The translations under genes and the position numbers were made by a program. A model generated the notes under the pieces. The model saw only the letters and a list, made by a program, of their open reading frames with translations, searched no databases and was not told where the DNA came from. From positions 219,393 through 283,392 of the forward strand of contig JAQURC010000002.1 of the NCBI GenBank assembly GCA_028715785.1: a stretch of DNA of 64,000 nucleotides, given 5' to 3'. The stretch is from Candidatus Omnitrophota bacterium (GTDB lineage Bacteria > Omnitrophota > Gorgyraeia > Gygaellales > Profunditerraquicolaceae). Positions 3,483-46,247 of the stretch are shown in pieces (position 1 is the first letter of the stretch; the number at the start of each line of letters is the position of its first letter).

Positions 3483-5456
3483 ATGGGTAAATTTAAATTA
3501 GTTTCCGTTTTTAAGCCCTGCGGAGACCAACCCAAAGCGATAGCGGAACTTTCCAAATCCATCCTGGATAAGAAACCTTATTCGACGCTGCTGGGGGTTA
3601 CCGGCAGCGGTAAAACTTTTACCTTAGCCAACGTAATAGCCAAAACCGGCTTACCCACCCTGGTAATCTCGCATAATAAAACATTGGCCGCCCAGCTTTA
3701 TTCGGAATTTAAAGACTTCTTTCCGCATAACGCGGTTGAATATTTTGTAAGTTATTACGATTATTACCAGCCGGAAGCCTACATTCCTTCCACGGATACC
3801 TATATAGAAAAAGATTCATCGATTAATGAGCGGCTGGACCGCTTAAGGCTGTCGGCGACAACCTCGTTAATGAGCCGCAAAGATGTAATTATCGTGGCCT
3901 CGGTTTCCTGTATCTATAACCTGGGTTCTCCCCAGGATTACCAGAAGATGCTGGTAATCTTAAATACGAAGGAAAAAATCCAGAGGGATGAATTGATTAC
4001 CCGGCTCATCCGGATCCAATATGAGCGCAATGATTATGAATTCAAACGCGGAAAATTACGGGTGCGCGGGGACGTAATCGAAATATTCCCTTCCTACAGC
4101 GAAGAAGCGCTGCGCGTAGAAATGCGTGGTGATTTAATCGATAAAATCTCGGTAATTGAACCGGTATCCGCAAAGACAATCAGCGTTATCGACAAAGCCG
4201 CGATTTATCCGGCAAAACATTTTATTGTTTCAGGCGACAGGGTTGATACGGCGATTAAATCCATAAAAGAAGAGCTGGCCATACAGTTAGAAAATCTGAA
4301 GAGAAAAAATAAATTACTGGAAGCCCAGCGCCTCCAGTCCCGCACAAACTACGACCTGGAAATGCTCAAAGAAATAGGCTACTGCCACGGGATCGAAAAC
4401 TATTCCCGGCACCTAAATGCCTTGCCCGCGGGCGGCCGGCCATATTCGATGATTGATTATTTCCAGGGGGATTTCTTGACCATCATCGATGAGTCTCACG
4501 CAACCATCCCGCAGATAAGAGGCATGTATGCCGGGGACAGGGCAAGGAAAGAGACCCTGGTAGATTACGGTTTCCGGCTTCCGTCATGCCTGGATAACCG
4601 GCCGTTAAAATTTGAAGAATTCAACCGGCTGGTAAAACAATTGGTTTTTGTTTCGGCTACGCCTGATGAATATGAATTAAAATTAAGCGGGAACAAAATT
4701 ATCGAGCAGATTATCCGGCCTACCGGTTTAATCGACCCTGAAATAATCGTTAAGCCCTCCCGGGGGCAAATCCAGGATTTAATCCTGGAGATAAAAAAAC
4801 GGGCTAAAAATAACCAAAGAACCCTGGTAACCACCCTGACCAAAAGAAACTCCGAAGACCTGGCTAATTACCTGGCCGAAAACGGAATAAAAGTAAAATA
4901 CCTGCATTCCGAAATACAAACTATCAGCCGTTCGGTAATCCTGAAAGAGCTGCGCCAGAAGAAATTTGATTGCTTAGTGGGGATTAATCTGTTGCGCGAA
5001 GGGCTGGATTTACCGGAGGTCTCATTGGTTGCCATCATCGACGCGGATAAAGAGGGGTTCCTGCGCAGCTCGACCAGCTTAATCCAGGTAGCCGGAAGGG
5101 CCGCGCGTAATATCGACGGGACGGTAATTATGTACGCCGATACGATTACCGGTTCGATGAAAAAAGCAATCCGGGAAAGCAACCGCAGAAGAAAAATCCA
5201 GCTGGAATACAACCGGAAGAATCAAATTACTCCCCGCTCAATCCAAAGGTCAATCAAAGAAGGGATAGAGAGCTTAGAGGATACCTCGGAATTTGTGCGA
5301 GAGCTGACCGGAGAACCAAAAGAGCAATACCAGTTGCATAAATATATATCCGAGTTAGAATATGAAATGGAATTGGCGGCGCGGAATTTGCAATTTGAAA
5401 AAGCGTCCGGGTTTAGGGACAAGATCAAGGAGCTGCGTAATGCTGCTGGCAATTGA
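3483..5456 (+). CDS. uvrB: Excinuclease ABC subunit B
   Basis: 657 aa. N-terminus FKLVS..KPCGDQPKAI, Walker A GVTGSGKTFT, helicase motifs and a C-terminal UvrB/UvrC interaction helix. Confidence 0.95.
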   Translation: MGKFKLVSVFKPCGDQPKAIAELSKSILDKKPYSTLLGVTGSGKTFTLANVIAKTGLPTLVISHNKTLAAQLYSEFKDFFPHNAVEYFVSYYDYYQPEAYIPSTDTYIEKDSSINERLDRLRLSATTSLMSRKDVIIVASVSCIYNLGSPQDYQKMLVILNTKEKIQRDELITRLIRIQYERNDYEFKRGKLRVRGDVIEIFPSYSEEALRVEMRGDLIDKISVIEPVSAKTISVIDKAAIYPAKHFIVSGDRVDTAIKSIKEELAIQLENLKRKNKLLEAQRLQSRTNYDLEMLKEIGYCHGIENYSRHLNALPAGGRPYSMIDYFQGDFLTIIDESHATIPQIRGMYAGDRARKETLVDYGFRLPSCLDNRPLKFEEFNRLVKQLVFVSATPDEYELKLSGNKIIEQIIRPTGLIDPEIIVKPSRGQIQDLILEIKKRAKNNQRTLVTTLTKRNSEDLANYLAENGIKVKYLHSEIQTISRSVILKELRQKKFDCLVGINLLREGLDLPEVSLVAIIDADKEGFLRSSTSLIQVAGRAARNIDGTVIMYADTITGSMKKAIRESNRRRKIQLEYNRKNQITPRSIQRSIKEGIESLEDTSEFVRELTGEPKEQYQLHKYISELEYEMELAARNLQFEKASGFRDKIKELRNAAGN

Positions 5457-6177
5457 TATCGGTAACACCAATATAAAAAGCGCGTTATTTAAAGGCAAAA
5501 AAATTATCAAACGGTTTGATCTCCCCGTAAAAACCTATTCCAAGGGCAGATTTGCAAAAAAACTTGCCAGTAACCAGCCAATATCCGCTGCCGCCATCTG
5601 CAGCGTTGTGCCTAAACTAACCGTAATTCTTAAACATGACCTAAAACTCTTAACCGGCAAAACCCCCTATATAATAGGTAAGGACTTAATTGTTCCTATG
5701 AAAAATCTTTACCGCAACCCCAAACAATTGGGCCAGGACCGGCTGGTCGCAGCTTACGCTGCCTCTAATCTTTACCATGCCCCTTTAATCGTCATGGATT
5801 CCGGCACCGCGATTACTTTTGATATAGTTTCCAAAGAAAAAACCTACCTGGGCGGATTGATCTTGCCCGGAATGGAAATTTCCTTTGAAGCTTTAAAAGC
5901 AAAAACCGCGCTCCTGCCAAAGATAAAATTACAGAAGCCAAAAGCCCTTATTGGGACCGATACCAAAAACAGCATATTAAGCGGAATTGTTTTTGGCACC
6001 GCTTGCCTGGCTAAAGAGCTGGTAAACAAAATCAAACAACGTATCGGTAAAGACACGCTGGTTATCGGCACCGGCGGAAACATCCATTTAATCAAGAAGT
6101 ATGCCGGCATGGGGATTAAAATTGATCCGGATCTGACTTTAAAAGGCATTAATCTTATCTATGGAAATAAAATTTAA
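5440..6177 (+). CDS. coaX: Type III pantothenate kinase
   Basis: Start chosen at the ATG giving MLLAIDIGNTNIKSALF, the canonical CoaX N-terminus. The upstream part of the ORF overlaps uvrB and is not coding here. Has the G(T)GGN C-terminal motif. Confidence 0.85.
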   Translation: MLLAIDIGNTNIKSALFKGKKIIKRFDLPVKTYSKGRFAKKLASNQPISAAAICSVVPKLTVILKHDLKLLTGKTPYIIGKDLIVPMKNLYRNPKQLGQDRLVAAYAASNLYHAPLIVMDSGTAITFDIVSKEKTYLGGLILPGMEISFEALKAKTALLPKIKLQKPKALIGTDTKNSILSGIVFGTACLAKELVNKIKQRIGKDTLVIGTGGNIHLIKKYAGMGIKIDPDLTLKGINLIYGNKI

Positions 6178-18140: not shown

Positions 18141-18687
18141 AATTAAATCCGGGGTAACGATTTTAGTTGAAGGCAATGTTTATGTCTGCCTTGACGCCCA
18201 GCACATCAAACCCGGCAAGGGCGCGGCTTTTGTGCGGGCAAGGCTGCGCAACATGAAAAACAATAATATCCAGGAGAAGACTTTCCGCGGCGACGATAAA
18301 ATAGAGCAGGCTTTTATCGAGGAACGTAAATTACAATACCAGTATTCAAGCGGCGGGATATTCCATTTTATGGACACCGAAAACTTCGAAGAAATCGCTA
18401 TCTCCGAAGAAAGTGTCGGGGACTCCGCCAAGCTTTTAAAAGACAACCTGGAGATCCAGGGTTACTTCTTCAAGGGAGAGACCCTGTCCATAACCTTGCC
18501 TAATTTTATTGAATTTAACATTATTGAAACCGAGCCGGGCATAAAAGGCGATTCATCCAAAAGCGGGACTAAACCTGCCACGGTTGATACCGGGGCAATT
18601 ATTCAGGTCCCTCTATTTATTAATGTAGGGGACAAGATAAAAGTTGACACGCGTACCGGCGGCACCTATGTTGAAAGGGTCAACTAA
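18121..18687 (+). CDS. efp: Elongation factor P
   Basis: [15 protein letters not shown].....QHIKPGKGAAFVRARLRN, with the KPGKG loop. Confidence 0.95.
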   Translation: MALSINEIKSGVTILVEGNVYVCLDAQHIKPGKGAAFVRARLRNMKNNNIQEKTFRGDDKIEQAFIEERKLQYQYSSGGIFHFMDTENFEEIAISEESVGDSAKLLKDNLEIQGYFFKGETLSITLPNFIEFNIIETEPGIKGDSSKSGTKPATVDTGAIIQVPLFINVGDKIKVDTRTGGTYVERVN

Positions 18688-18689
18688 GT

Positions 18690-18755
18690 AACACCCCGCG
18701 CTTATAAGGAATTGCGCGCCTGCCTGCCGGCAGGCAGGGGTAGGCCCTTCTGGGC
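18690..18755 (+). repeat. Intergenic GC-rich palindromic element, copy A (efp-accB spacer)
   Basis: AACACCCCGCGCTTATAAGGAATTGCGCG + CCTGCCTGCCGGCAGGCAGG + GGGGTAG + GCCCTTCTGGGC. The first 54 nt are identical to copy B at 45642-45695. Confidence 0.7.
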
Positions 18756-18767
18756 AAGGAGTTTTTT

Positions 18768-19223
18768 ATGAATATCAAAGAAATCAAGGAAATGATTAAC
18801 CTGATGAATGAAAACGGCCTGACTGAACTGGAAGTAGAGAAGGATGATATGCGTATCCGCCTTAAAAAAACAGCCAGCGGCATCGAAGGTTTTGATGGAG
18901 CGGCTGTTTTGCAGGGACAGAACCAAGCAGCTCAACTTAAAGTCCAGAACCTGCAGCAGGCAGAAGAAAAGAACGCAGTTAAAACATTGGAAATTAAGTC
19001 TCCGATGGTCGGGACGTTCTATCGGGCGCCTAATCCCGAAGCCCCTGCTTATGTGGAGGTTGGCCAAACTATTGAACCCGGGCAGGTAATCTGTATCATT
19101 GAAGCGATGAAATTGATGAATGAAATAAAATCAGAAATAAAAGGCAAGATCCTTGAAATATTAGTTGATAACGCTGAACCGGTAGAATTCGGCCAGCCAT
19201 TATTCCTTATTGAGCCGCTCTAA
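18768..19223 (+). CDS. accB: Biotin carboxyl carrier protein of acetyl-CoA carboxylase
   Basis: C-terminal biotinyl domain with the EAMKLMNEI motif. Confidence 0.9.
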   Translation: MNIKEIKEMINLMNENGLTELEVEKDDMRIRLKKTASGIEGFDGAAVLQGQNQAAQLKVQNLQQAEEKNAVKTLEIKSPMVGTFYRAPNPEAPAYVEVGQTIEPGQVICIIEAMKLMNEIKSEIKGKILEILVDNAEPVEFGQPLFLIEPL

Positions 19224-19233
19224 GTAATATAAG

Positions 19234-20595
19234 ATGTTCTCTAAGATCCTTATTGCCAATCGAGGCGAAATCGCCTTAAGAATAATCCGCGCAGCTCATG
19301 AGATGGGCATACGCACCGTGGCCGTTTACTCCCAGGCGGACCGCAACAGCCTGCACGTGCGTTTTGCCGACGAAGCAATCTGCATCGGCCAGGCATCTTC
19401 CAGTAACAGCTACTTAAACATCCCCGCGATTATCAGCGCGGCTGAAATTACCGATGTCGAGGCCATTCATCCGGGTTACGGATTTTTGGCCGAGAACGCG
19501 CATTTTGCCGAAATATGTAAATCCTGTAAAATCACTTTTATCGGCCCTACCCCGGAAAATATGCGCCTTATGGGAGATAAGATGGCTGCCCGCACGACGA
19601 TGCAAAAAGCCGGCCTGCCGATTGTTCCCGGAAGCCGCGCGATTATAAAAAACAAGGAAGAAGCGCTCAAGACCGCCAAGACAATCGGCTATCCTGTAAT
19701 TATCAAAGCGGCTGCCGGAGGCGGCGGCAAAGGAATGCGTATTTGCCATAACGATCTAACTCTTGTATCCAGTTTATTGACCGCCCAGACCGAAGCGGAA
19801 GCAAATTTCGGTAATTCCAGCGTCTACATTGAAAAATATATTGAAAGACCGCGCCATATCGAAGTTCAGATTATCGCCGATTCCTCGGGCCATATCGTGC
19901 AGCTTGGAGAAAGGGACTGCAGTATCCAGAGGAGGCACCAGAAATTACTTGAAGAATCGCCTTCTCCGGTAGTCGACAGCAAGATGCGCCGTAAATTAGG
20001 AGAGATGGTTTTAAAAGGAATGAAATCCATCGGTTATGTCAGCTGCGGCACGATTGAATTTTTGCTTGATGAAAAAACCGGAAATTTCTATTTTATGGAG
20101 ATGAATACCCGGATCCAGGTAGAGCACCCGGTTACCGAAATGGTTACCGGCATTGATTTGATTAAGGAGCAGATCCGGGTGGCTTCCGGTGAAAAACTCA
20201 AGTTCAATCAGGACAATATTCAACTTAAGGGGGCGGCGATTGAATGCCGGATTAACGCCGAAGACCCGGATAATAATTTTATGCCTTGCCCCGGAAAAAT
20301 CGATGCATTAATCCTTCCCGGAGGCCCGAATGTCCGCGTGGATACGCATATTTACGCCGGATATGAAATATCCCCTTATTATGATTCTTTAGTGGCTAAA
20401 CTCATTGTCTACGGTAACAACCGCCAGGAGGCAATCAAAACTATGCGCCGGGCTTTAAGTGAATTTTACATTGCCCCGATTAAGACCACCATACCTTTTC
20501 ATCTTAAGCTGATGGACAATCCGTTATTTAAAAAGAGCGATATCTCCACCCATTTTGTGCAGGACCTTTTGGCAAATGAAGGGAAAGCAGAGTAA
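19234..20595 (+). CDS. accC: Biotin carboxylase
   Basis: 453 aa. [23 protein letters not shown]-grasp, [14 protein letters not shown]. Confidence 0.95.
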
Positions 20596-20949
20596 ATGAA
20601 CCGCGATGAATCAAGGAACGAATTAGGGATAGTCAGGATCCATAAGAATGTAATTTCATCCATATCTTCTATCGCCGCCATGGAGATCGAAGGGGTAAAA
20701 TCGGTCGGCAAAGATCTGAGGTCCGGATTGCTTGAATTTTTCGGGCAAAAATATTTTTCGGCAATAAAAGTAGATATCTCTAAAAATGAAGAGGTAAAGG
20801 TAGAAATTCCCTTGATTATCAAATATGGCTATAATATTCCGGATGTGGCCAGCCGCGTTCAGGAGAATGTACGCCAGGCATTAGAAAAGATGGGCAATCT
20901 TTCCATAAAAGATGTCAATATAAATGTGCGGGGGATAGAAAGGGGTTAA
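20596..20949 (+). CDS. Asp23/Gls24 family envelope stress protein
   Basis: 117 aa. N-terminus VRIHKNVISSISSIAAMEIEGV and a VxVxV repeat, typical of Asp23 (DUF322). Confidence 0.8.
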   Translation: MNRDESRNELGIVRIHKNVISSISSIAAMEIEGVKSVGKDLRSGLLEFFGQKYFSAIKVDISKNEEVKVEIPLIIKYGYNIPDVASRVQENVRQALEKMGNLSIKDVNINVRGIERG

Positions 20950-20951
20950 CT

Positions 20952-21560
20952 ATGAGATTTTTTTCCGTATTGGGGATCGTATTTTACTCGGTGGTCATTA
21001 TCGGGATCGGCCTGGCAATGATTATATTTTCATTGGACCTGTTACAGCCCCAGGATATCAATAATTTGCTTATTTTTTCCCAGAACAGCCAAAATTCCCG
21101 GATAATTATCGGCCTGTCCGGCGCGCTTTTAATCCTGATTAGTTTTTCCTTTGCCCAGGTCATCTTAGGTAAATTCCAGAGGGAAAGGACGATTGCATTC
21201 GCAACAGCCAGCGGCCAGGTCACCATATCGCTATCTGCGGTGGAGGACCTGATCCGCAGGTTGTCCGTAGTGATCCCTGAAGTAAAGGAATTAAGGCCAA
21301 ATGTCGTGGCCAGTAAAAAAGGAATTGTTGTCGATATGCGCGTAGTCTTGCGTTCTGAAGCCAATATCCCCGAACTTACCAGCCGCCTGCAGGATATTAC
21401 AAAAAGTAAAATTCAGGAGGTTTTAGGGGTTGAAGAGCAGATTATCATCAGGATCCATGTAGCCAAGATTGTTCACGATGAAAAGGACAGCCGCAAGAAA
21501 AAAGATTTCGAAAAAGACGATTATTCAACAATACCGTTTAGCGGTTACGGACGGGCTTAA
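20952..21560 (+). CDS. Membrane protein, AmaP-like Asp23 anchor candidate
   Basis: Two N-terminal TM helices, a basic/acidic C-tail, and position directly after Asp23. Confidence 0.45.
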   Translation: MRFFSVLGIVFYSVVIIGIGLAMIIFSLDLLQPQDINNLLIFSQNSQNSRIIIGLSGALLILISFSFAQVILGKFQRERTIAFATASGQVTISLSAVEDLIRRLSVVIPEVKELRPNVVASKKGIVVDMRVVLRSEANIPELTSRLQDITKSKIQEVLGVEEQIIIRIHVAKIVHDEKDSRKKKDFEKDDYSTIPFSGYGRA

Positions 21561-21564
21561 AGGC

Positions 21565-21594
21565 ACCCGGCGCTTATAAGGTATTGCGCGGGTG
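21565..21594 (+). repeat. Intergenic GC-rich palindromic element, copy C (upstream of pfk)
   Basis: CACCCGGCGC-TTATAAGGTATT-GCGCGGGTG, followed by the small hairpin TGTGT-tcgt-ACACA next to the AGGAGG RBS. Confidence 0.65.
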
Positions 21595-21623
21595 TGTGTT
21601 CGTACACAAGGAGGAATGAAGAA

Positions 21624-22652
21624 ATGGCAAGGATTGGTATTCTAACAGGCGGTGGCGATTGCCCGGGATTAAATCCGGTAATTCGGGCGGTTGTGCGTAA
21701 GGCGTTGCTTGAAGGATATGAAATCACGGGCATTAAAAATGGCTGGAAGGGCCTGGTTGAGAACGATACCATGCGTTTAGATATTAATACTGTTTCCGGC
21801 ATCTTACCCAAAGGCGGGACTATTTTAGGGACCAGCCGCACTAACCCGTATAAAAAAGAAGGCGACCTGCAAAAGGTCAAGGACAATTTTAAGAAAATGG
21901 GATTGGACGCCCTAGTTGCCGTGGGCGGCGAAGACACCCTCGGCGTTGCTTCCAAACTGGTTAAAGAAGGACTGCCTATTGTAGGAGTCCCCAAAACCAT
22001 TGACAATGACCTTTCAGCTACCGATTACACCTTTGGCTTCGATACTGCTTTAAACGTGGCAATGGAGTGTATTGACCGTTTACATACTACGGCTGAAAGC
22101 CATCACCGGATTATGGTCGCCGAGGTCATGGGCAGGCACGCGGGCTGGATTGCCCTTGAGGCAGGTATTGCCGGAGGAGCGGATGTGATCCTGATCCCTG
22201 AGATCCCTATCGATTTAGATGAAGTTTGCAATATTATCAAGAAGAGGCACGCAAGAGGAAAAACATTTAGTATTGTGGTAGTTTCCGAGGGCGCTCAATT
22301 TAAAGACGGCTCCATGGTTACCCAGGAAAAAAAGCTTGACGCCTTTGGGCATGTAAGGCTGGGCGGTATCGGCGAAGAATTAGCCGCGCAGATTGAGAAA
22401 AAAACCGGCTATGAAACCAGGGTCAGTGTCTTGGGCCATATACAAAGAGGGGGCTCACCGACCGCCTTTGACCGCGTATTGGGTACGCGCTTAGGGGTAA
22501 AAGCGGTGGAACTGATTAAAAATAAGAAATTCGGAAAAATGGTAGCCTTAGCCGGTATCAAGATTATCGACGTGCCTTTAGAGGAAGCGGTGAAGGCTTT
22601 AAAAACCGTGGATATGGAACTCTATGATATCGCGAAAGTTTTTTTTGGATAA
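21624..22652 (+). CDS. pfk: 6-phosphofructokinase (ATP- or PPi-dependent)
   Basis: Start at MARIGILTGGGDCPGLN, 8 nt after AAGGAGG. MGR and PKTIDND motifs. The ORF-track start at 21594 translates the upstream repeat. Confidence 0.85.
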   Translation: MARIGILTGGGDCPGLNPVIRAVVRKALLEGYEITGIKNGWKGLVENDTMRLDINTVSGILPKGGTILGTSRTNPYKKEGDLQKVKDNFKKMGLDALVAVGGEDTLGVASKLVKEGLPIVGVPKTIDNDLSATDYTFGFDTALNVAMECIDRLHTTAESHHRIMVAEVMGRHAGWIALEAGIAGGADVILIPEIPIDLDEVCNIIKKRHARGKTFSIVVVSEGAQFKDGSMVTQEKKLDAFGHVRLGGIGEELAAQIEKKTGYETRVSVLGHIQRGGSPTAFDRVLGTRLGVKAVELIKNKKFGKMVALAGIKIIDVPLEEAVKALKTVDMELYDIAKVFFG

Positions 22653-22662
22653 TAAGGTAGTG

Positions 22663-22708
22663 ACACCCCGCGCTGAATGGTATTGCGCGGGTGTCCTCCC
22701 CGTGGAGG
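22663..22708 (+). repeat. Intergenic GC-rich palindromic element, copy D, plus an RBS-pairing hairpin (upstream of gmhA)
   Basis: ACACCCCGCGC-TGAATGGTATT-GCGCGGGTGT is a perfect 11-bp stem. Then CCTCC-ccgt-GGAGG, where GGAGG is the gmhA Shine-Dalgarno. Confidence 0.65.
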
Positions 22709-22712
22709 AAAA

Positions 22713-23291
22713 ATGCGCGAAAGAATAAAAGATATACTTTTAGAAAGTATCCAGGTTAAAGAAGAGATCTTGCGCAACCAGGTTGATTCTATTCTCCAGA
22801 TTGCCGTGTTGATGATCGATTGCCTGAAAAAAGACGGCAAGGTCATTGTCTTTGGTAACGGCGGTTCGGCCAGCGACAGCCAGCATATTGCCGCCGAGCT
22901 TGTCGGCCGTTTTAAAAAAGACCGTTCGGCCTTAGCCGGTATTGCCCTGACTACCAATACATCGATACTTACTTCTCTGGCTAATGATTACGGTTATGAT
23001 GTAGTCTTTGCCCGCCAGGTCGAAGCCCTGGGCAAGAAAAATGACGTAGTTTTGGGGATATCTACCAGTGGAAAAGCAAAAAACGTAGCTTTAGGGATCA
23101 AGCAGGCTAAAAAAATGGGGATTAAAACCGTAGCTTTAAGCGGCGGAGACGGAGGAGATATCGTAAAGTTAGCCGATGTCTCTTTAGTCGTCCCTTCTAA
23201 AGTAACCGCCAGGATCCAGGAAGCGCACATTACTATCGCCCACATAATATGCGAAATGATCGAGCAAGAACTCTGCCAGGAACAAAAATAA
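22713..23291 (+). CDS. gmhA: D-sedoheptulose-7-phosphate isomerase (SIS domain)
   Basis: Start at MRERIKDIL after GGAGG. SIS motifs GNGGSASDSQH and ISTSG. Confidence 0.8.
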   Translation: MRERIKDILLESIQVKEEILRNQVDSILQIAVLMIDCLKKDGKVIVFGNGGSASDSQHIAAELVGRFKKDRSALAGIALTTNTSILTSLANDYGYDVVFARQVEALGKKNDVVLGISTSGKAKNVALGIKQAKKMGIKTVALSGGDGGDIVKLADVSLVVPSKVTARIQEAHITIAHIICEMIEQELCQEQK

Positions 23292-24760: not shown

Positions 24761-26044
24761 ATGACACAGTTAGAATCCGCCAAAAAAAACATCGTTACAC
24801 CGCTTATGCGCGCAGTAGCCTCCATTGAAAGACTGGATCCTTCTTTGCTGATGCGCCTTATGCGTGAAGGTAAAGTAGTCATACCCCTAAATATAAATCA
24901 TAAAATAAAAAAACCCTGCGCAATAGGCAGCAGCCTGTCTACCAAGGTCAATGCCAATATCGGCACCTCAACGGATGAATCCCGGATCAGCGATGAAATA
25001 GAAAAACTTAAAGTTGCCATAAACCATGGGGCAGACGCTTTAATGGACTTAAGCGTAGGCGGAGATCTTGATAAATTAAGGCGCCGGGTCCTAAAACATT
25101 CAACTGTCCCGGTAGGCACGGTCCCGGTTTATGAGGTGGCAGTCAGGGCCCAGGAAAGAAAAGGCAACTTCCTTAAATTCAGCGCAGATGATGTTTTGGC
25201 GGTATTGGAAAAACAGGCAAGGCAGGGGGTGGATTTTTTTACCGTGCACAGCGGAGTAACATGCAATAGCCTTAAGGTCCTGGAAAAAAATAAAAGGCTG
25301 ATGGGAATTGTTTCGCGCGGCGGAGCAATTATTGCCAGCTGGATGAAATACCATAAGGAAGAAAATCCTTTTTATTCGCATTTTGACCGGATTTTGGATA
25401 TTGCCTATAAATATGATGTTACTTTAAGCCTGGGAGACGGGTTAAGGCCGGGTTCAATTTTAGACGCAACGGACAAGGCCCAGATTGCCGAGCTAAAAAT
25501 ACTCGGCAGTTTGGCCAAGCGCGCCTGGGATAGGAGCGTCCAGGTTATGATCGAAGGCCCAGGGCATGTCCCTATGGATCAAATAGAAAAAAACATTGCT
25601 TTAGAGAAAAAATATTGCTTTGGCGCTCCTTTTTATGTGCTGGGGCCTCTGGTTACCGATGTTGCCCCGGGTTATGACCATATTACATCTGCCATCGGCG
25701 GAGCAATGGCGGCAAGCTTTGGAGCGGATTTTCTCTGTTATGTGACTCCTGCCGAGCATTTGCGCCATCCCAGCGCCAGCGATGTGGCTGAAGGGGTAAT
25801 TGCCAGCCGCATTGCCGCCCACGCCGGAGATTTAGTTAAGCGCAGGAAAGTTGCGCTGGAATGGGACAGGAATATTTCTATTGCCAGGAAGGCGCGGGAC
25901 TGGAAAAAACAAATTCGGCTGGCTATTGACCCTAAAAAAGCAAAACAGTACCGGTTAAGCAGCAAGCCTAAACTTTCTAATGTATGCACGATGTGTGGGA
26001 AATACTGTTCTATCAAATTAATGGAAGATTGCCTGCGGGTGTAA
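24761..26044 (+). CDS. thiC: Phosphomethylpyrimidine synthase
   Basis: 427 aa with a radical-SAM-like C-terminal Cys cluster (CTMCGKYCSIK) and ThiC core motifs. Confidence 0.95.
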   Translation: MTQLESAKKNIVTPLMRAVASIERLDPSLLMRLMREGKVVIPLNINHKIKKPCAIGSSLSTKVNANIGTSTDESRISDEIEKLKVAINHGADALMDLSVGGDLDKLRRRVLKHSTVPVGTVPVYEVAVRAQERKGNFLKFSADDVLAVLEKQARQGVDFFTVHSGVTCNSLKVLEKNKRLMGIVSRGGAIIASWMKYHKEENPFYSHFDRILDIAYKYDVTLSLGDGLRPGSILDATDKAQIAELKILGSLAKRAWDRSVQVMIEGPGHVPMDQIEKNIALEKKYCFGAPFYVLGPLVTDVAPGYDHITSAIGGAMAASFGADFLCYVTPAEHLRHPSASDVAEGVIASRIAAHAGDLVKRRKVALEWDRNISIARKARDWKKQIRLAIDPKKAKQYRLSSKPKLSNVCTMCGKYCSIKLMEDCLRV

Positions 26045-26104
26045 TTCAGTGGTAGAATGGCAGCTTCCCAAGCTGCATATGGCGGTCCGATTCCGCTCAC
26101 CCGC
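26035..26104 (+). tRNA. tRNA-Gly (anticodon CCC)
   Basis: Cloverleaf with acceptor GCGGGTG/CACCCGC, D-arm ATTC-AGTGGTA-GAAT, anticodon stem GCAGC/GCTGC with loop TTCCCAA, and T-arm GGCGG-TCCGATT-CCGCT. No encoded CCA. The 5' end overlaps the thiC stop codon. Confidence 0.8.
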
Positions 26105-26116
26105 TTATAAATTGAT

Positions 26117-36142: not shown

Positions 36143-36210
36143 AGAATCAGGGAACATTTCTATTTTTTTTCTATTTTTTTCAAAAAAAATAGAAATGTTC
36201 CCTGATTTCT
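36143..36210. repeat. Long near-perfect palindrome (28-bp arms, 11-nt spacer) in a divergent promoter region
   Basis: AGAATCAGGGAACATTTCTATTTTTTTT ctatttttttc AAAAAAAATAGAAATGTTCCCTGATTTCT. Arms are related to the 59043-59121 element. Confidence 0.7.
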
Positions 36211-36348: not shown

Positions 36349-37509
36349 ATGGCGGAGTGGATAGGTATAAACAGGCGCGCAAGAAGGTGTTATGGCTTTG
36401 ATGAGGTTGCCCTGGTTCCCGGAGCCCAAACCGTAAATCCCAATGAAGTCGATACCAGCTTTGAATTTAACGGGAAAAGGTTTAAGATACCTATTCTTGC
36501 GGCGGCTATGGATGGAGTGGTCAACGTTAAGTTTGCCATTGAAATGTCCCGCTTAGGCGGAATTGCGGTCTTAAATCTCGATGGGATACAAACCCGTTAT
36601 GAAGATCCGGATGGAGTGCTGGAAGAAATTGCCAAAGCTACCCCGCAAAAAGCTACCGAATTAATCCAGGCAGTTTACACCACCCCCATAAAAGAAAAAC
36701 TGGTTACCAAGAGGGTGGCCGAAATTAAAAAAGCCAAGGCTATGGCTGTAGTAAGCTGCATCCCGGCGAATGCCGAAAAATTCTCAAAATTAGCGGTTAG
36801 CGCCGGAGCTGATATTTTCATCATCCAATCCACAGTCACTACGATTAAACACGTCTCTACGCAATATAAAACGCTGAACTTAATAAAATTCTGTAAATCC
36901 ATGAAAATCCCCGTAATCCTGGGAAATTGCGTAACCTACGAGACAACTTTAGAACTTATGCAAACCGGGGCCAGCGGTTTACTTATCGGCGTGGGGCCGG
37001 GTGCTGCTTGCACAACGCGCGGGGTATTAGGTATCGGAGTCCCCCAGGTCACCGCTACTGTTGACGCATCAGGGGCGCGCGATTTTCATTATAAACGCAC
37101 GGGAAAATATGTCTCCATTATTACGGACGGCGGGATGAACCGGGGAGGGGATATCTGCAAGGCATTTGCCTGCGGGGCCGACGCCGTTATGATCGGCTCA
37201 AGCTTTGCCCGCGCCCAGGAGGCTCCCGGCAGAGGATTTCACTGGGGGATGGCTACCTCCCATGTTAACCTGCCCCGCGGAACCCGCATTCAGGTCGGCA
37301 CAACCGGCTTATTGAAAGAAATTTTACTCGGGCCGGCAAAAGTGGACGACGGCTCACAAAATCTTTTAGGCGCCTTAAGGACATCCATGGGTTCACTGGG
37401 CGCATCAAACTTAAAAGAAATGCATGACGTAGAAATCATCATCGCCCCTTCGATCCAGACCGAAGGAAAAATATTTCAAGTCGGCCAAAGAGTAGGAATG
37501 GGAAAATGA
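36349..37509 (+). CDS. IMP dehydrogenase/GMP reductase family protein (short form without CBS subdomain)
   Basis: 386 aa TIM barrel with catalytic Cys loop [11 protein letters not shown] and IIADGG-like ITDGG. No CBS insert. Confidence 0.8.
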
Positions 37510-44261: not shown

Positions 44262-45649
44262 GGACCCATACTTGCGCCCAACTCAATGCCGCGGATACGG
44301 GAAAACCGGTTACGCTTTGCGGCTGGGTTGCCAATAGGCGCGACCACGGCAAGCTAATCTTTATTGACATCCGCGACCGCTACGGCCTGACCCAAGTCGT
44401 CTTCATCCCTAAAGAATCAGGGGAAGCCCATAAATTGGCGCAAGAGCTAAGAAGTGAATTCGTAATCAAATTAAGCGGACTGGTAAATAAGCGTCCGGCC
44501 GGCACGGTTAATCCAAAACTGGTAACCGGAGAAATAGAAATTTTAGCCAAAGAGCTGGAAATATTAAACCCCAGCAGCACCCCTCCGTTTGAAATCCAGG
44601 ATGATATCGAGATAACCGAAGAGATCCGCCTTAAATACCGTTACCTTGATTTGAGAAGGAACAAAGTTTTTAAAAACCTGCTGTTACGAAGCGATCTCTA
44701 TAAAGTTATCCGCTCCTACCTGGGAAACAAAGATTTTATCGAATGCGAAACTCCGATACTGACCAAATCCACTCCTGAAGGCGCCCGCGATTACCTGGTC
44801 CCTGCAAGATTAAACCCGGGCCATTTTTTTGCCCTGCCCCAATCCCCGCAATTATTCAAGCAGATCCTGATGGTCGCCGGAATCGAAAAATACTATCAGA
44901 TCGCCAAATGTTTCCGCGATGAAGACCTGCGCGCCGACCGCCAGCCGGAATTTACCCAGCTGGATATCGAAATGTCCTTTATAAACCAGGAGGATATCTT
45001 TTCTTTAACCGAAGGACTGATGAAGATTATTTTCAAGGAATTAAAAAACATAGAGCTGCCCACTCCGTTTACCCGTATAAGTTATAAAGATGCGCTGGAA
45101 AAATATAAGTCCGATAAACCTGACCTGCGCCCTGAAACAAAAACAGAATTCGCTTTCTGTTGGGTGCTGGATTTCCCGCTTTTTAAATTCAATGCGGAAG
45201 AAAAACGCTGGGAAAGCGAACACCATCCTTTTACCGCGCCGAAAGCCGAAGATATCCAAAACCTGGAAAAATCCCCGGATAAAGTAAAATCCTGCTCATA
45301 TGACCTGGTTTTAAACGGCATGGAACTGGGTTCAGGATCAATAAGGATACACCGCCCGGAGCTCCAAGAGAAAATCTTTAAGATTATCGGCATAGATAAA
45401 GAAGAGGCCTCCAAGCGTTTCGGATTCCTTCTGGATGCTTTTACGTTCGGAGCGCCTCCGCATGGAGGGGTGGCTTTTGGATTAGACAGGCTGCTTGCCA
45501 TACTTTCTGCGGAATCAAGCATACGCGAAGTCATTACCTTTCCTAAAACCTCGGCCGCGTTCTGCCCGTTAACTAACGCGCCTTCGGATGTTGAAGATAA
45601 GCAATTAAAAGAACTGGGTATAACCATTATTAACACCCCGCGCTTATAA
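44255..45649 (+). CDS. aspS: Aspartyl-tRNA synthetase, bacterial type but lacking the GAD insertion domain
   Basis: N-terminal OB (LRTHTCAQL..LCGWV..RRDHG), motif 2 FRDEDLRADRQPEFTQLDIEMSF, then YGSDKPDLR is followed directly by the FPLF/HHPFTAP region. About 120 aa that E. coli AspRS carries here are absent. Confidence 0.9.
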   Translation: MLRTHTCAQLNAADTGKPVTLCGWVANRRDHGKLIFIDIRDRYGLTQVVFIPKESGEAHKLAQELRSEFVIKLSGLVNKRPAGTVNPKLVTGEIEILAKELEILNPSSTPPFEIQDDIEITEEIRLKYRYLDLRRNKVFKNLLLRSDLYKVIRSYLGNKDFIECETPILTKSTPEGARDYLVPARLNPGHFFALPQSPQLFKQILMVAGIEKYYQIAKCFRDEDLRADRQPEFTQLDIEMSFINQEDIFSLTEGLMKIIFKELKNIELPTPFTRISYKDALEKYKSDKPDLRPETKTEFAFCWVLDFPLFKFNAEEKRWESEHHPFTAPKAEDIQNLEKSPDKVKSCSYDLVLNGMELGSGSIRIHRPELQEKIFKIIGIDKEEASKRFGFLLDAFTFGAPPHGGVAFGLDRLLAILSAESSIREVITFPKTSAAFCPLTNAPSDVEDKQLKELGITIINTPRL

Positions 45650-45697
45650 GGAATTGCGCGCCTGCCTGCCGGCAGGCAGGGGTAGCCCTTGTGGGCG
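45642..45697 (+). repeat. Intergenic GC-rich palindromic element, copy B (aspS to LysM-lipoprotein spacer)
   Basis: 54/54 nt identical to copy A: AACACCCCGCGCTTATAAGGAATTGCGCGCCTGCCTGCCGGCAGGCAGGGGTAG. Tail hairpin GCCCTTGTGGGC. Confidence 0.7.
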
Positions 45698-45713
45698 AAA
45701 GGAGGGAAGTAAG

Positions 45714-46247
45714 ATGAATAAATTTAAATTAGCAGGGATCTGCGTATTGGCATCGACAATGGCACTATCAGGATGCGTGACCAGGACCTACAACTTAACC
45801 CGTGATAGAGTGGACCAGGATTTATCATCCACCTCAGGAAACCGCGGTTACCTTACCGGCCAGGCCCCTGAACCAAAAGAAAGAACAACTACCCGCACCG
45901 TCAGGGTCTTTGAGATAGAACTGGGAAAAACTAAATCTAATGTAAGCTGTCCGGCAACCACCCCGCTGGGGACCAGCATCGAAGAACCGGCTGGCGGCTT
46001 TCAGGAGGAAATAAATGAAACCCAGGGTTTTGAAAAATATACGGTAGCTAAAAATGACACCTTACAAAAAATTTCTAAAAAATTTTACGGAACAACCAAA
46101 AGATGGATGAAGATTTATAATGCCAATAAAAATGTTTTATCCGCCCCGGACAAACTTTATCCCGGACAAACTTTAAATATCCCTTCTGCCCCGGCATTAA
46201 AAATTAAGCCTGAGAAAATGGCAGAAACAAAAGAAAACCTCAAGTAA
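45714..46247 (+). CDS. LysM-domain lipoprotein
   Basis: Start at MNKFKLAGICVLASTMALSGC (lipobox) after AGGAGGG. C-terminal LysM (YTVAKNDTLQKISKKFYG...YPGQTLNIP). The ORF-track start at 45654 translates the repeat. Confidence 0.6.
   Translation: MNKFKLAGICVLASTMALSGCVTRTYNLTRDRVDQDLSSTSGNRGYLTGQAPEPKERTTTRTVRVFEIELGKTKSNVSCPATTPLGTSIEEPAGGFQEEINETQGFEKYTVAKNDTLQKISKKFYGTTKRWMKIYNANKNVLSAPDKLYPGQTLNIPSAPALKIKPEKMAETKENLK

What the first reader, a model, noticed from the sequence alone, without database searches (positions are those of the whole stretch)
21565..22708. Second subtype of the same palindromic family (copies C and D) with RBS-occluding hairpins upstream of pfk and gmhA
Copy C (21565-21594, CACCCGGCGC-TTATAAGGTATT-GCGCGGGTG) and copy D (22663-22694, ACACCCCGCGC-TGAATGGTATT-GCGCGGGTGT) share the stem sequence and the T-A-rich loop (..GGTATT) with copies A/B. 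They form one long perfect stem instead of two hairpins. In D the next 14 nt (CCTCC-ccgt-GGAGG) pair the gmhA Shine-Dalgarno. In C a small hairpin TGTGT-tcgt-ACACA abuts AGGAGG. All four copies sit immediately after the stop codon of one gene and before the RBS of the next gene in the same operon. That placement fits an inter-cistronic processing/stability element or translational-coupling modulator, or a REP-like element.
Basis: seen in the sequence. Interest (0 to 1): 0.5.

Follow-up and report, generated by a model that had tools for sequence, protein, structure and literature searches.

The report
Mobile two-hairpin repeat beside ribosome-binding sites
Copies C and D belong to a previously undescribed family of about 50-base, two-hairpin repeats found across the candidate phylum Omnitrophota; the repeats come and go between close relatives and lodge just upstream of ribosome-binding sites, so they look like small mobile DNA rather than switches specific to pfk or gmhA.

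Summary
C is 21564-21608 and D is 22664-22709. Each has a hairpin hp1 with a one-base bulge, not a perfect stem, directly followed by a second hairpin hp2 and then the Shine-Dalgarno (SD) sequence.

The same module, sharing the hp1 arms and loop with A and B, occurs in at least 59 Omnitrophota species genomes and about 84 metagenome contigs. Both stems show compensatory changes. About two thirds of copies sit in sense orientation directly before an SD and start codon of unrelated housekeeping genes.

The module behaves like mobile DNA:
- Site C is empty in all four syntenic relatives, site A in three, and site D in one; at D one further relative carries a different repeat.
- Copies nest inside each other's loop at AAGG^AATT.
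- Copies form tandem arrays.

No Rfam family, terminator or promoter matches. The conserved Omnitrophota RAYT-like transposase carries a different hairpin.

Predicted access to the ribosome-binding site is unchanged by the module but is lowered by shuffled inserts. Only D can occlude its SD, and a competing pairing leaves it about 60% open.

Verdict: a REP/MITE-like repeat family with an unusual SD-adjacent niche. The mobilising enzyme and any RNA-level role are unknown.

The parts
21564..21594 (+). Copy C, hairpin 1 (hp1): CACCCGGCGC / 12-nt loop TTATAAGGTATT / GCGCGGGTG, with a one-base bulge or G-G mismatch
   Evidence: Sequence. MFE fold. Covariance model R1 gives 53.7 bits, E = 8.7e-11, and C was not used in training.
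21595..21608 (+). Copy C, hairpin 2 (hp2): TGTGT-tcgt-ACACA, with no linker after hp1
   Evidence: The same hp2 subtype occurs in L006, L029, L079 and L080.
21609..21626 (+). pfk Shine-Dalgarno AGGAGG (21609-21614), spacer, and ATG (21624-21626). The AGG at 21561-21563, 5' of the insert, repeats the AGG at 21609-21611.
   Evidence: The empty orthologous sites read TAG/TAA-AGGAGG-N9-11-ATG. The SD is predicted 87% unpaired.
22653..22663 (+). Copy D, 5' flank: purine-rich tract TAAGGTAGTGA after the pfk stop (22650-22652). It may be the former SD and can pair with the CCUCC of hp2.
   Evidence: Alternative MFE pairing. Orthologous flanks end in GTAGG, GGAAGG or GGGAAGG.
22664..22693 (+). Copy D, hairpin 1: CACCCCGCGC / 11-nt loop TGAATGGTATT / GCGCGGGTG, with one bulged C
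   Evidence: R1 gives 70.1 bits.
22694..22709 (+). Copy D, hairpin 2: TCCTCC-ccgt-GGAGGA. Its 3' arm contains the gmhA SD (GGAGG, 22704-22708). The ATG is at 22713.
   Evidence: The subfamily recurs in L027, L037, L069, L084, L097, L111, L116 and L119.
18692..18755 (+). Copy A (efp|accB). hp1 is 18692-18718 plus 18739-18742, split by the 20-nt palindrome at 18719-18738. hp2 GCCC-ttct-GGGC is 18744-18755. SD AAGGAG is 18756-18761 and the ATG is at 18768.
   Evidence: 35.9 bits. The site is filled in L116 and empty in L117-L119.
45634..45696 (+). Copy B (aspS|LysM lipoprotein). hp1 is 45634-45660 plus 45681-45684, split by the palindrome at 45661-45680. hp2 GCCC-ttgt-GGGC is 45685-45696. SD AGGAGG is 45700-45705 and the ATG is at 45714. 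The aspS stop TAA (45647-45649) lies in the hp1 loop.
   Evidence: (35.7 bits).

Best explanation
C and D are two copies of a lineage-specific, non-autonomous repeated element of Omnitrophota. It is REP/MITE-like in behaviour.

The unit is about 46-55 nt and has two parts:
- hp1 is a 9-10 bp G+C-rich stem with one bulged base in the 5' arm and an 11-12 nt loop, U-W-A-W-n-G-G-W-A-U-U.
- hp2 follows with no linker. It is 4-7 bp, variable in sequence but always paired, usually with an NNGU loop.

Shown here:
- Units are gained and lost on the time scale of species divergence.
- They insert next to purine-rich, SD-like sequence: the 5' flank is W-R-R, the self-insertion point is AAGG^AATT in their own loop, and AGG flanks both sides at site C.
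- They keep one orientation relative to the downstream gene.
- They end so that an SD follows hp2, or is supplied by hp2's 3' arm.

Inferred:
- Because the two hairpins abut, the folded unit is a self-contained 'dumbbell' whose 5' and 3' flanks emerge side by side. This would leave the ribosome-binding site as accessible as if the unit were absent, and would let copies persist even in ribosomal-protein operons.
- The conserved bulge and loop are the recognition features of an unidentified mobilising protein, possibly one acting on single-stranded hairpin DNA.

For pfk and gmhA the copies are most likely near-neutral passengers in the intercistronic spacers. In D the anti-SD CCUCC can toggle between the upstream purine tract and the gmhA SD, which may modestly affect gmhA initiation.
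For: Distribution:
108 of them are in 59 Omnitrophota-type assemblies, including Ca. Velamenicoccus archaeovorus LiM.
- Parts of the module that the pattern did not force are conserved: GGTGT, hp2 and the SD. hp2 of at least 5 bp is present in 88% of copies against 15% of control positions.
- A second scan that left the hp1 stems free gave 93 metagenome hits. About 84 carry hp1, with compensatory variants such as CACCCGGCGC/GCGCCGGUG..CAGCGC/GCGCUG....GACGC/GCGUC.. and GCGU/ACGC, and the bulge is kept.
- hp2 covaries at 5 of 6 pairs.

Mobility:
- In the syntenic loci L116-L119, site C is filled only in the window and site A only in the window and L116. Site D is filled in the window, L116 and L119 (and in L084), is empty in L118, and in L117 is occupied by a different repeat.
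- L116 has an exact 46-nt extra copy inside the loop of copy A at AAGG^AATT.
- Nested copies occur in L008, L011, L018, L047, L059 and L067. Tandem arrays occur in L015, L125 and L201, the last with at least 17 copies in 13 kb.

Niche:
- 73 of 110 copies have a sense ORF start within 35 nt downstream, against about 10 antisense.
- Both strands are used within single contigs.
- The downstream genes are diverse housekeeping genes.

Fold neutrality (n = 108):
- Mean probability that the SD-to-AUG stretch is unpaired is 0.53 native, 0.52 with the unit deleted (p = 0.13) and 0.48 with a shuffled insert (p = 2e-6).
Against: - No mobilising gene was found. The one conserved Y1/RAYT-like family in Omnitrophota is flanked by a different hairpin (TCTAACCAGGTTA...) and has no copy of this element within 4 kb in four further loci scanned with the model; its source locus L110 does hold one copy about 1.6 kb upstream.
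- The junctions are inconsistent. Site C shows an AGG/AAGG direct repeat, while the nested insertion shows none.
- Site D is more conserved than neutral sites. Identity is 93% and 83% against L116 and L119, while four-fold degenerate sites in the flanking genes are 68-80% and 41-56% identical. This points to constraint, gene conversion or repeated insertion, not simple junk.
- Strict sense orientation and exact SD adjacency would also be expected of a functional RNA leader.
- No whole-genome census could be made, so copy number per genome is extrapolated: 4 per 64 kb in the window and 4 per 52 kb in relatives seeded on PFK.
Confidence: 0.6

Rival explanations
1. A phylum-specific cis-acting RNA leader. 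hp1 would be the docking or cleavage site of a dedicated protein or RNase that separates cistrons, and hp2 would then cap the new 5' end next to the SD. In this reading selection for that role keeps the module, and mobility is only how it spreads.
For: - Orientation is almost exclusively sense, and the module abuts the SD with 0-1 nt of slack.
- The hp1 loop and bulge are conserved across the phylum while the stems covary.
- Site D is conserved well above four-fold degenerate sites.
- The module is frequent upstream of highly expressed genes such as ribosomal proteins, DnaK, GroES and NusA.
- At the Trm112 site the module lies between an SD inside the upstream ORF and the AUG. Three contigs lack any SD after hp2, which suggests the folded RNA matters.
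Against: - Copies are dispensable at sites A, C and D in close relatives.
- Nested and tandem copies serve no obvious leader role.
- G-U (19) and A-C (15) mismatches in hp1 are balanced, so there is no strand-specific RNA signature.
- Deleting the module does not change predicted access to the ribosome-binding site.
- The loop decays at the orthologous D copy of L119.
- No Rfam family matches.
Confidence: 0.22
2. A DNA-level protein-binding palindrome, for example a site for a nucleoid protein, topoisomerase or site-specific recombinase, that acts on double-stranded or extruded DNA independently of transcription.
For: - hp1 is a near-palindrome with an A+T-rich centre.
- G-U and A-C mismatches are symmetric, which is the expectation for DNA pairing.
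- E. coli REP/BIME elements are known to bind gyrase and IHF (own knowledge).
Against: - Orientation follows the local gene on either strand of the same contig.
- hp2 and the SD junction would be irrelevant to a DNA site, yet they are conserved.
- The one-base bulge makes the duplex site asymmetric.
Confidence: 0.07
3. One reading: SD-occluding hairpins that tune the pfk to gmhA expression ratio or translational coupling in this operon.
For: - D's hp2 pairs GGAGG with CCUCC.
- That subfamily recurs at gmhA in L116, L119 and L084.
- hp1 starts within 3-11 nt of the upstream stop codons, so a terminating ribosome would melt it (inference).
Against: - C does not occlude its SD, which is 87% unpaired.
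- In D and two of its three orthologues the MFE structure pairs CCUCC with the upstream purine tract, leaving the SD about 60% open.
- Site C is absent in all four relatives, and site D carries no copy of the element in two of them.
- The same module precedes more than 100 unrelated genes.
Confidence: 0.06

Closest known systems
REP / BIME elements and REPIN-RAYT systems (Enterobacteria, Pseudomonas; Bertels & Rainey, PMC3337134, PMC3116915)
   Same: - Short imperfect palindromes that are almost entirely extragenic and repeated many times.
- Lineage-specific, and variable between close relatives.
- Organised into subfamilies.
- Often sit in intercistronic spacers just after stop codons.
   Different: - The units are not inverted doublets. 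They occur singly or as direct tandem and nested arrays.
- They have a fixed sense orientation and abut the SD of the downstream gene.
- A second, covarying hairpin is part of the unit.
- The conserved Omnitrophota RAYT-like gene is flanked by another hairpin, not by this element.
Small composite repeats co-transcribed with genes: pneumococcal BOX/RUP/SPRITE, Neisseria Correia elements, ERIC (Croucher et al., PMC3049150)
   Same: - Modular, and strongly folded if transcribed.
- Inserted in transcribed spacers.
- Variable module number.
- Possible side effects on mRNA cleavage or stability.
   Different: - Much shorter, about 50 nt.
- No terminal inverted repeats spanning the unit.
- Those families are enriched between convergent genes or show mixed orientations, whereas this one is locked 5' of start sites.
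IS200/IS605-type single-strand transposition and derived palindrome-associated elements (own knowledge)
   Same: - A hairpin with an extrahelical base could act as a recognition feature.
- Insertion occurs 3' of a short specific sequence.
- Orientation is fixed.
- The nested insertion shows no target duplication.
   Different: - The two hairpins are unlike each other.
- No cognate TnpA was found.
- Site C shows a 3-4 nt direct repeat.
- The mechanism is untested.
Insulating or stabilising 5' hairpins next to ribosome-binding sites, such as the ompA 5' stem-loop and the split RBS of T4 gene 38 (own knowledge)
   Same: - A stable local hairpin directly upstream of an exposed SD.
- One arrangement, the Trm112 site, with structure between an SD and the AUG.
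   Different: - Those are single-gene features, not a dispersed repeat family.
- No 5' end has been mapped here.

Membership tests
REP (repetitive extragenic palindrome) | Short imperfect palindrome, predominantly extragenic, repeated many times in a genome | tested here: met
   - hp1 is an imperfect palindrome of about 31 nt.
- All four window copies and essentially all retrieved copies are intergenic, or overlap only the last codons of a gene.
- Density is 4 per 64 kb here and up to 17 per 13 kb in L201.
- Copy number per genome could not be counted.
REPIN | Two REPs in inverted orientation forming one long hairpin, as the replicating unit (PMC3337134) | tested here: not met
   - Copies are single, in direct tandem, or nested in the same orientation.
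- The one close inverted pair (L063) flanks an skp-like gene.
REPIN-RAYT system | A single-copy RAYT (Y1 HUH transposase) gene flanked by its cognate REP/REPIN | tested here: not met
   - A conserved Y1_Tnp family (Pfam E = 1.5e-18) sits next to comM in five Omnitrophota loci.
- It is flanked by TCTAACCAGGTTA...TAACCTGGTTAGA.
- The model finds no hit within 4 kb of it in the four loci scanned, L213-L216.
- Other transposases could not be surveyed.
MITE | Terminal inverted repeats at the two ends of the unit, plus a target-site duplication | tested here: inconclusive
   - The unit's ends (CACC... and the 3' foot of hp2) are not inverted repeats of each other.
- An AGG/AAGG direct repeat flanks copy C, but the clean nested insertion in L116 has none.
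Rfam RNA families (any) | A covariance-model match at or near the gathering score | tested here: not met
   - The only gathering-level hits in the window are two tRNAs.
- A permissive scan of 18600-22800 found nothing overlapping the elements.
Intrinsic terminator / attenuator | G+C-rich hairpin followed by a U tract | tested here: not met
   No T run follows hp1 or hp2, and the terminator scan reports no site on the elements.
Integron attC site | Bulged imperfect palindrome after a cassette stop codon, with RYYYAAC / GTTRRRY cores and a nearby integron integrase | tested here: not met
   A bulged hairpin after stop codons is present, but the core sequences are absent from the elements (sequence). 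The flanking genes are syntenic housekeeping genes, not cassettes. No integrase search was run.
CsrA-type leader | GGA in a hairpin loop plus GGA in the SD, bridged by a CsrA dimer | tested here: inconclusive
   The loop has GGA in A, B and about 60% of copies, but GGU in C, D and about 40% of copies. The presence of CsrA in these genomes was not tested.

The most novel reading that the evidence does not exclude
The module may be a mobile 'leader cassette' that homes to Shine-Dalgarno sequences and is kept by selection. In this reading a phylum-specific protein or RNase recognises the bulged hp1 and its conserved loop, cuts polycistronic mRNAs there, and leaves hp2 as a protective 5' cap directly before the SD. 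That would be a transposable punctuation system for operons. Its array-length variation might also explain the unexplained hypervariable windows reported inside Omnitrophota ribosomal-protein operons (bioRxiv 10.64898/2026.06.07.730766).
Probability: 0.2. Interest if true: 0.8.

Novelty: new variant of a known kind. Interest (0 to 1): 0.5.

Why it matters
Omnitrophota are uncultured, ultra-small and possibly predatory bacteria, and almost nothing is known about their gene expression.

A repeat that is conserved in sequence across the phylum, fixed in orientation, and wedged precisely between stop codons and ribosome-binding sites is unusual for REP-like DNA. It occurs even inside ribosomal-protein operons. 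It points to one of two things:
- a transposition mechanism that targets SD-like sequence; or
- a transposable RNA leader.

Practical consequences:
- These modules will confuse start-codon calling and operon prediction. ORFs run into them and end at the loop UAA.
- They are likely to break or collapse short-read assemblies.
- They may account for population heterogeneity reported inside ribosomal-protein operons.

The covariance model built here can annotate them.

Tried and rejected
1. Known RNA family. Rfam scans at the gathering threshold and at a permissive E-value found nothing on the elements.
2. Terminator or promoter. No U tract is present and no consensus site is predicted on the elements.
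3. REPIN/RAYT link.
   - A motif screen of all ORFs in 1.6 Mb of fetched DNA found one Y1 transposase, in L110.
   - Its homologues form a conserved family beside comM in Omnitrophota.
   - They carry their own, different hairpin and no copy of this element within 4 kb.
4. Inverted pair as a transposase cradle. The inverted pair in L063 flanks an skp-like chaperone gene next to bamA.
5. Strand-specific RNA pairing test. G-U (19) against A-C (15) mismatches in hp1 are not different (p = 0.6). This gives no support for RNA-only selection.
6. RBS insulator or occluder idea. Native and deleted constructs give the same predicted SD-to-AUG accessibility.
7. Exact target site and target duplication. 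The junctions at C, A, D and the nested copies could not be reconciled into one rule.
8. tRNA-derived origin. The hp1 arms resemble the tRNA-Gly(CCC) acceptor strands and hp2 resembles its D-arm. However, the stems covary away from that sequence in other copies, so this was left as an unproven lead.
9. Literature. Full-text searches for Omnitrophota/Omnitrophica/Velamenicoccus combined with palindromic, RNA motif or repeat found no description of this element.
Full report
**What is in the window**

Reading 21300-22900 confirms both copies.

Copy C:
- hp1 is 21564-21594: CACCCGGCGC, loop TTATAAGGTATT, GCGCGGGTG.
- hp2 follows immediately at 21595-21608: TGTGT-tcgt-ACACA.
- AGGAGG is at 21609-21614 and the pfk ATG at 21624.

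Copy D:
- hp1 is 22664-22693: CACCCCGCGC, loop TGAATGGTATT, GCGCGGGTG.
- hp2 is 22694-22709: TCCTCC-ccgt-GGAGGA.
- The gmhA ATG is at 22713.

The 5' arm is one base longer than the 3' arm, so the stem has a bulge and is not perfect.

Pfam identifies the neighbouring genes as pepP, efp, [A], accB, accC, asp23, a 202-aa ORF, [C], pfk, [D], gmhA and a cytidylyltransferase.

Copies A (18692-18755) and B (45634-45696) have the same hp1. In both it is interrupted between GCGCG and GGT by the 20-nt palindrome CCTGCCTGCCGGCAGGCAGG, which gives a three-way junction. In B the aspS reading frame runs into the element and stops at the UAA in the hp1 loop.

**More than chance**

- The 15-mer GGTATTGCGCGGGTG occurs exactly twice in the window.
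- A covariance model (R1), scored at every position of the window, finds only A-D. The next match has E about 0.9.
- Folding energies are only modestly better than shuffles: z = -2.05 for C and -2.6 for D.

**The family**

An exact pattern for hp1 (CACCCSGCGCTN{3,7}GGWATTGCGCG) was scanned over one genome per bacterial species.
- Seven are isolated chance matches in unrelated taxa.
- The other 108 lie in 59 assemblies labelled Omnitrophota/Omnitrophica, including Ca. Velamenicoccus archaeovorus LiM. A few are labelled 'uncultured Planctomycetales' and one is labelled Margulisiibacteriota.

The part of the module that the pattern did not force is conserved:
- GGTGT follows the pattern.
- A perfect hairpin follows directly. 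It is at least 5 bp in 88% of copies against 15% of control positions, and at least 6 bp in 66% against 7%.
- GGAG(G) and a start codon 5-9 nt later follow in about two thirds of copies.

hp2 falls into subfamilies: UUGUCU/AGACAA, GCCC/GGGC, UGUGU/ACACA (as in C), UCCUCC/GGAGGA (as in D), UUCGCC/GGCGAA and others. Five of its six pairs show changes on both sides (that alignment was selected for hairpins).

A second scan, of metagenomes, fixed only GGAATT and one hp2 type and left the hp1 stems free.
- It gave 93 hits, of which about 84 have hp1.
- The stems show compensatory variants: CACCCGGCGC/GCGCCGGUG (about 20 times), ..CAGCGC/GCGCUG.., ..GACGC/GCGUC.., ..AACGC/GCGUU.. and GCGU/ACGC.
- The one-base bulge and the loop consensus U-W-A-W-n-G-G-W-A-U-U are retained.

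**Context and orientation**

- Of 110 pattern-defined copies, 73 have an ORF start in the sense direction within 35 nt downstream. About 10 have an antisense start on the other side.
- Copies on both strands occur within single contigs.
- The base before CACC is a purine in 96% of copies. The two bases before it are mostly A/T then G/A.
- The downstream genes are unrelated housekeeping genes. Pfam confirms L16, L6, L20, L35, DnaK, GroES, NusA, IlvC, Ndk and SSB among more than 100.

This rules out a regulator specific to pfk or gmhA.

**Evidence for mobility**

PFK homologues are all from Omnitrophota. Four syntenic loci were fetched: L116, L117, L118 and L119, at 98, 94, 93 and 91% PFK identity. 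The spacers compare as follows.

| Site | Filled | Empty or other |
|---|---|---|
| C (202aa\|pfk) | window only | L116 and L118 read TAG/TAA-AGGAGG-N9-11-ATG; L119 has a plain 24-nt spacer; L117 has an unrelated 71-nt spacer without the element |
| A (efp\|accB) | window, L116 | L117 and L119 read TAA-(GC)AAGGAG-N6-7-ATG; in L118 the stop and start overlap |
| D (pfk\|gmhA) | window, L116, L119; also L084 | empty in L118; a different repeat in L117 |

Further points:
- At C the window reads TAA-AGG-[unit]-AGGAGG..., so AGG/AAGG appears on both sides of the insert.
- In L116 a second, complete 46-nt unit (CACCTGGCGC...GGCGAA) sits inside the loop of copy A exactly at AAGG^AATT, with no duplication.
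- The same nesting point recurs in L008, L011, L018, L047, L059 and L067.
- Tandem and multiply nested arrays occur. L201 has at least 17 copies in 13 kb, between ribosomal-protein genes. L125 is similar.
- Composite forms propagate. A and B share the hp1-plus-palindrome composite, which is also seen in L087 and L065.

These are the hallmarks of a proliferating repeat, not of a fixed regulatory site.

**Evidence that the copies are not simply decaying**

At site D the unit is 93% (L116) and 83% (L119) identical to the window copy. Four-fold degenerate sites in pfk and gmhA are only 68-80% and 41-56% identical. The stems are unchanged or changed to G-U, and the differences sit mainly in the loops. 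Purifying selection on the fold, gene conversion from other copies, or repeated insertion at a hot spot could each explain this.

Across 129 distinct copies, hp1 has 19 G-U and 15 A-C mismatches (p = 0.6). So there is no signature that only the sense RNA strand is under selection.

**Effect on the ribosome-binding site**

- In C the SD lies just outside hp2 and is predicted 87% unpaired.
- In D the CCUCC arm can pair with the downstream GGAGG or with the purine tract 5' of hp1. The second pairing is the MFE structure in the window copy and in two of three orthologues. It leaves the SD 58-63% unpaired in those three copies; in L116 the MFE pairs the SD, which is then only 5% unpaired.
- Across 108 copies, the mean probability that the SD-to-AUG stretch is unpaired was compared for three constructs.

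| Construct | Mean probability unpaired | Comparison with native |
|---|---|---|
| Native unit | 0.53 | - |
| Unit deleted | 0.52 | p = 0.13 |
| Shuffled insert of the same composition | 0.48 | p = 2e-6 |

The unit is therefore a self-contained fold that does not disturb the initiation region. hp1 and hp2 abut without a linker. I infer that they can stack into a dumbbell whose two flanks emerge side by side.

At the DUF1844/Trm112 junction the unit lies between an SD embedded in the upstream ORF and the AUG. The upstream ORF ends at the loop UAA. Three contigs have no SD after hp2. This is consistent with the dumbbell picture, or with termination followed by re-initiation.

**What mobilises it**

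- A motif screen of all ORFs in 1.6 Mb of fetched DNA found one Y1 (HUH) transposase, in L110.
- Its relatives form a conserved family of 52-88% identity that sits beside comM in Omnitrophota, as domesticated RAYTs do.
- That gene is flanked by a different hairpin, TCTAACCAGGTTA...TAACCTGGTTAGA. Model R1 finds nothing within 4 kb of it in the four further loci scanned.

The mobilising activity therefore remains unknown. Several features are reminiscent of single-strand (IS200/IS605-like) transposition: the conserved bulge and loop, the fixed orientation, insertion 3' of a short purine motif, and the lack of duplication at the nested site. That link is inference only.

**Comparison with known systems**

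- The element meets the descriptive definition of a REP: a short imperfect palindrome that is extragenic, repeated, lineage-specific and variable between relatives (PMC3337134).
- It fails the REPIN test (inverted doublets) and the RAYT-association test.
- It resembles small co-transcribed composite repeats such as BOX, Correia and ERIC (PMC3049150) in being modular and folded. It differs in being much shorter and locked in sense orientation against the SD.
- It matches no Rfam family. It is not a terminator or promoter. It lacks attC cores.
- Full-text searches found no description of it.

**Verdict**

The family is a new variant of a known kind. Its niche is unusual: between the stop codon and the SD, or between the SD and the AUG, including in ribosomal-protein operons. 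An RNA-level role remains open.

Interest is moderate at 0.5. The most novel reading still open, a transposable operon-punctuation leader, has a probability of about 0.2.

Noticed in passing
window 18719-18738 and 45661-45680: The 20-nt perfect palindrome CCTGCCTGCCGGCAGGCAGG that interrupts hp1 in copies A and B is a dispersed mini-element in its own right. There are 13 copies in the fetched DNA. Several stand alone just upstream of an SD and ATG (L048, L071, L075, L209), and others sit inside hp1 (L065, L087).
   Followed up: partly
window 45634-45649; also L158, L165, L180, L137 and L199: Upstream ORFs read into the element and terminate at the UAA in the hp1 loop: aspS ends ...NTPRL* and DUF1844 ends ...TPRA*. 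The consensus unit has a stop codon in all three frames before the SD.
   Followed up: partly
L110 4105-4779; L213-L216 around 3900-4620: A conserved RAYT-like Y1 transposase (192-198 aa) sits at a fixed locus, spoVG - UPF0102 - comM - Y1_Tnp, across Omnitrophota. It is flanked by its own hairpin, TCTAACCAGGTTA...TAACCTGGTTAGA, and the right copy overlaps the gene's last codons.
   Followed up: yes
window 26035-26105; L118 10400-10470; L137 125-200; L158 1476-1550; L047: The thiC stop codon lies inside the 5' end of tRNA-Gly(CCC). In three relatives a copy of the element abuts this tRNA, with hp2's 3' arm overlapping the tRNA's first bases. The hp1 arms (CACCC(C)GC / GCGGGUGU) and the hp2 loop region (AGGUAGA) resemble the tRNA-Gly acceptor strands and D-arm. 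This could reflect origin or coincidence.
   Followed up: partly
L201 2040-3490, 5900-6520 and 11690-12610; L125 660-1650: Dense tandem and nested arrays of the element fill spacers in the ribosomal-protein operons, upstream of rpsC, rplP, rpmJ and rpsM. A 2026 preprint reports unexplained hypervariable windows inside ribosomal-protein operons in 150 of 223 Omnitrophota chromosomes and does not mention intergenic repeats. The two observations may be linked.
   Followed up: no
L117 7030-7117; L026 about 5525-5570; L013/L017/L024/L096/L108; L018/L064/L067/L082; L063 150-1100: Several other repeat families occupy the same kind of spacer:
- GTAATGTT(T)CCCCTCGCGGGAGCTCGGGGT...;
- the palindrome AAGACCCGGTCTT;
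- ACACCCGGCC...GGCCGGTGT;
- a repeat of about 60 nt, GAATTTATACCCCTTATT..GGGTATTTAAATGAGC.
These genomes appear rich in small repeats.
   Followed up: no
window 36145-36207: A perfect 26-nt inverted repeat, AATCAGGGAACATTTCTATTTTTTTT / AAAAAAAATAGAAATGTTCCCTGATT, with 11 nt between the arms. It looks like a bidirectional terminator or another repeat. A related hairpin lies in the thiC|tRNA spacer of L119.
   Followed up: no
window 36550-36567: A weak partial match to the hp1 loop region, CGCTTAGGCGGAATTGCG (10.9 bits, E about 1). It may be a relic copy or chance.
   Followed up: no
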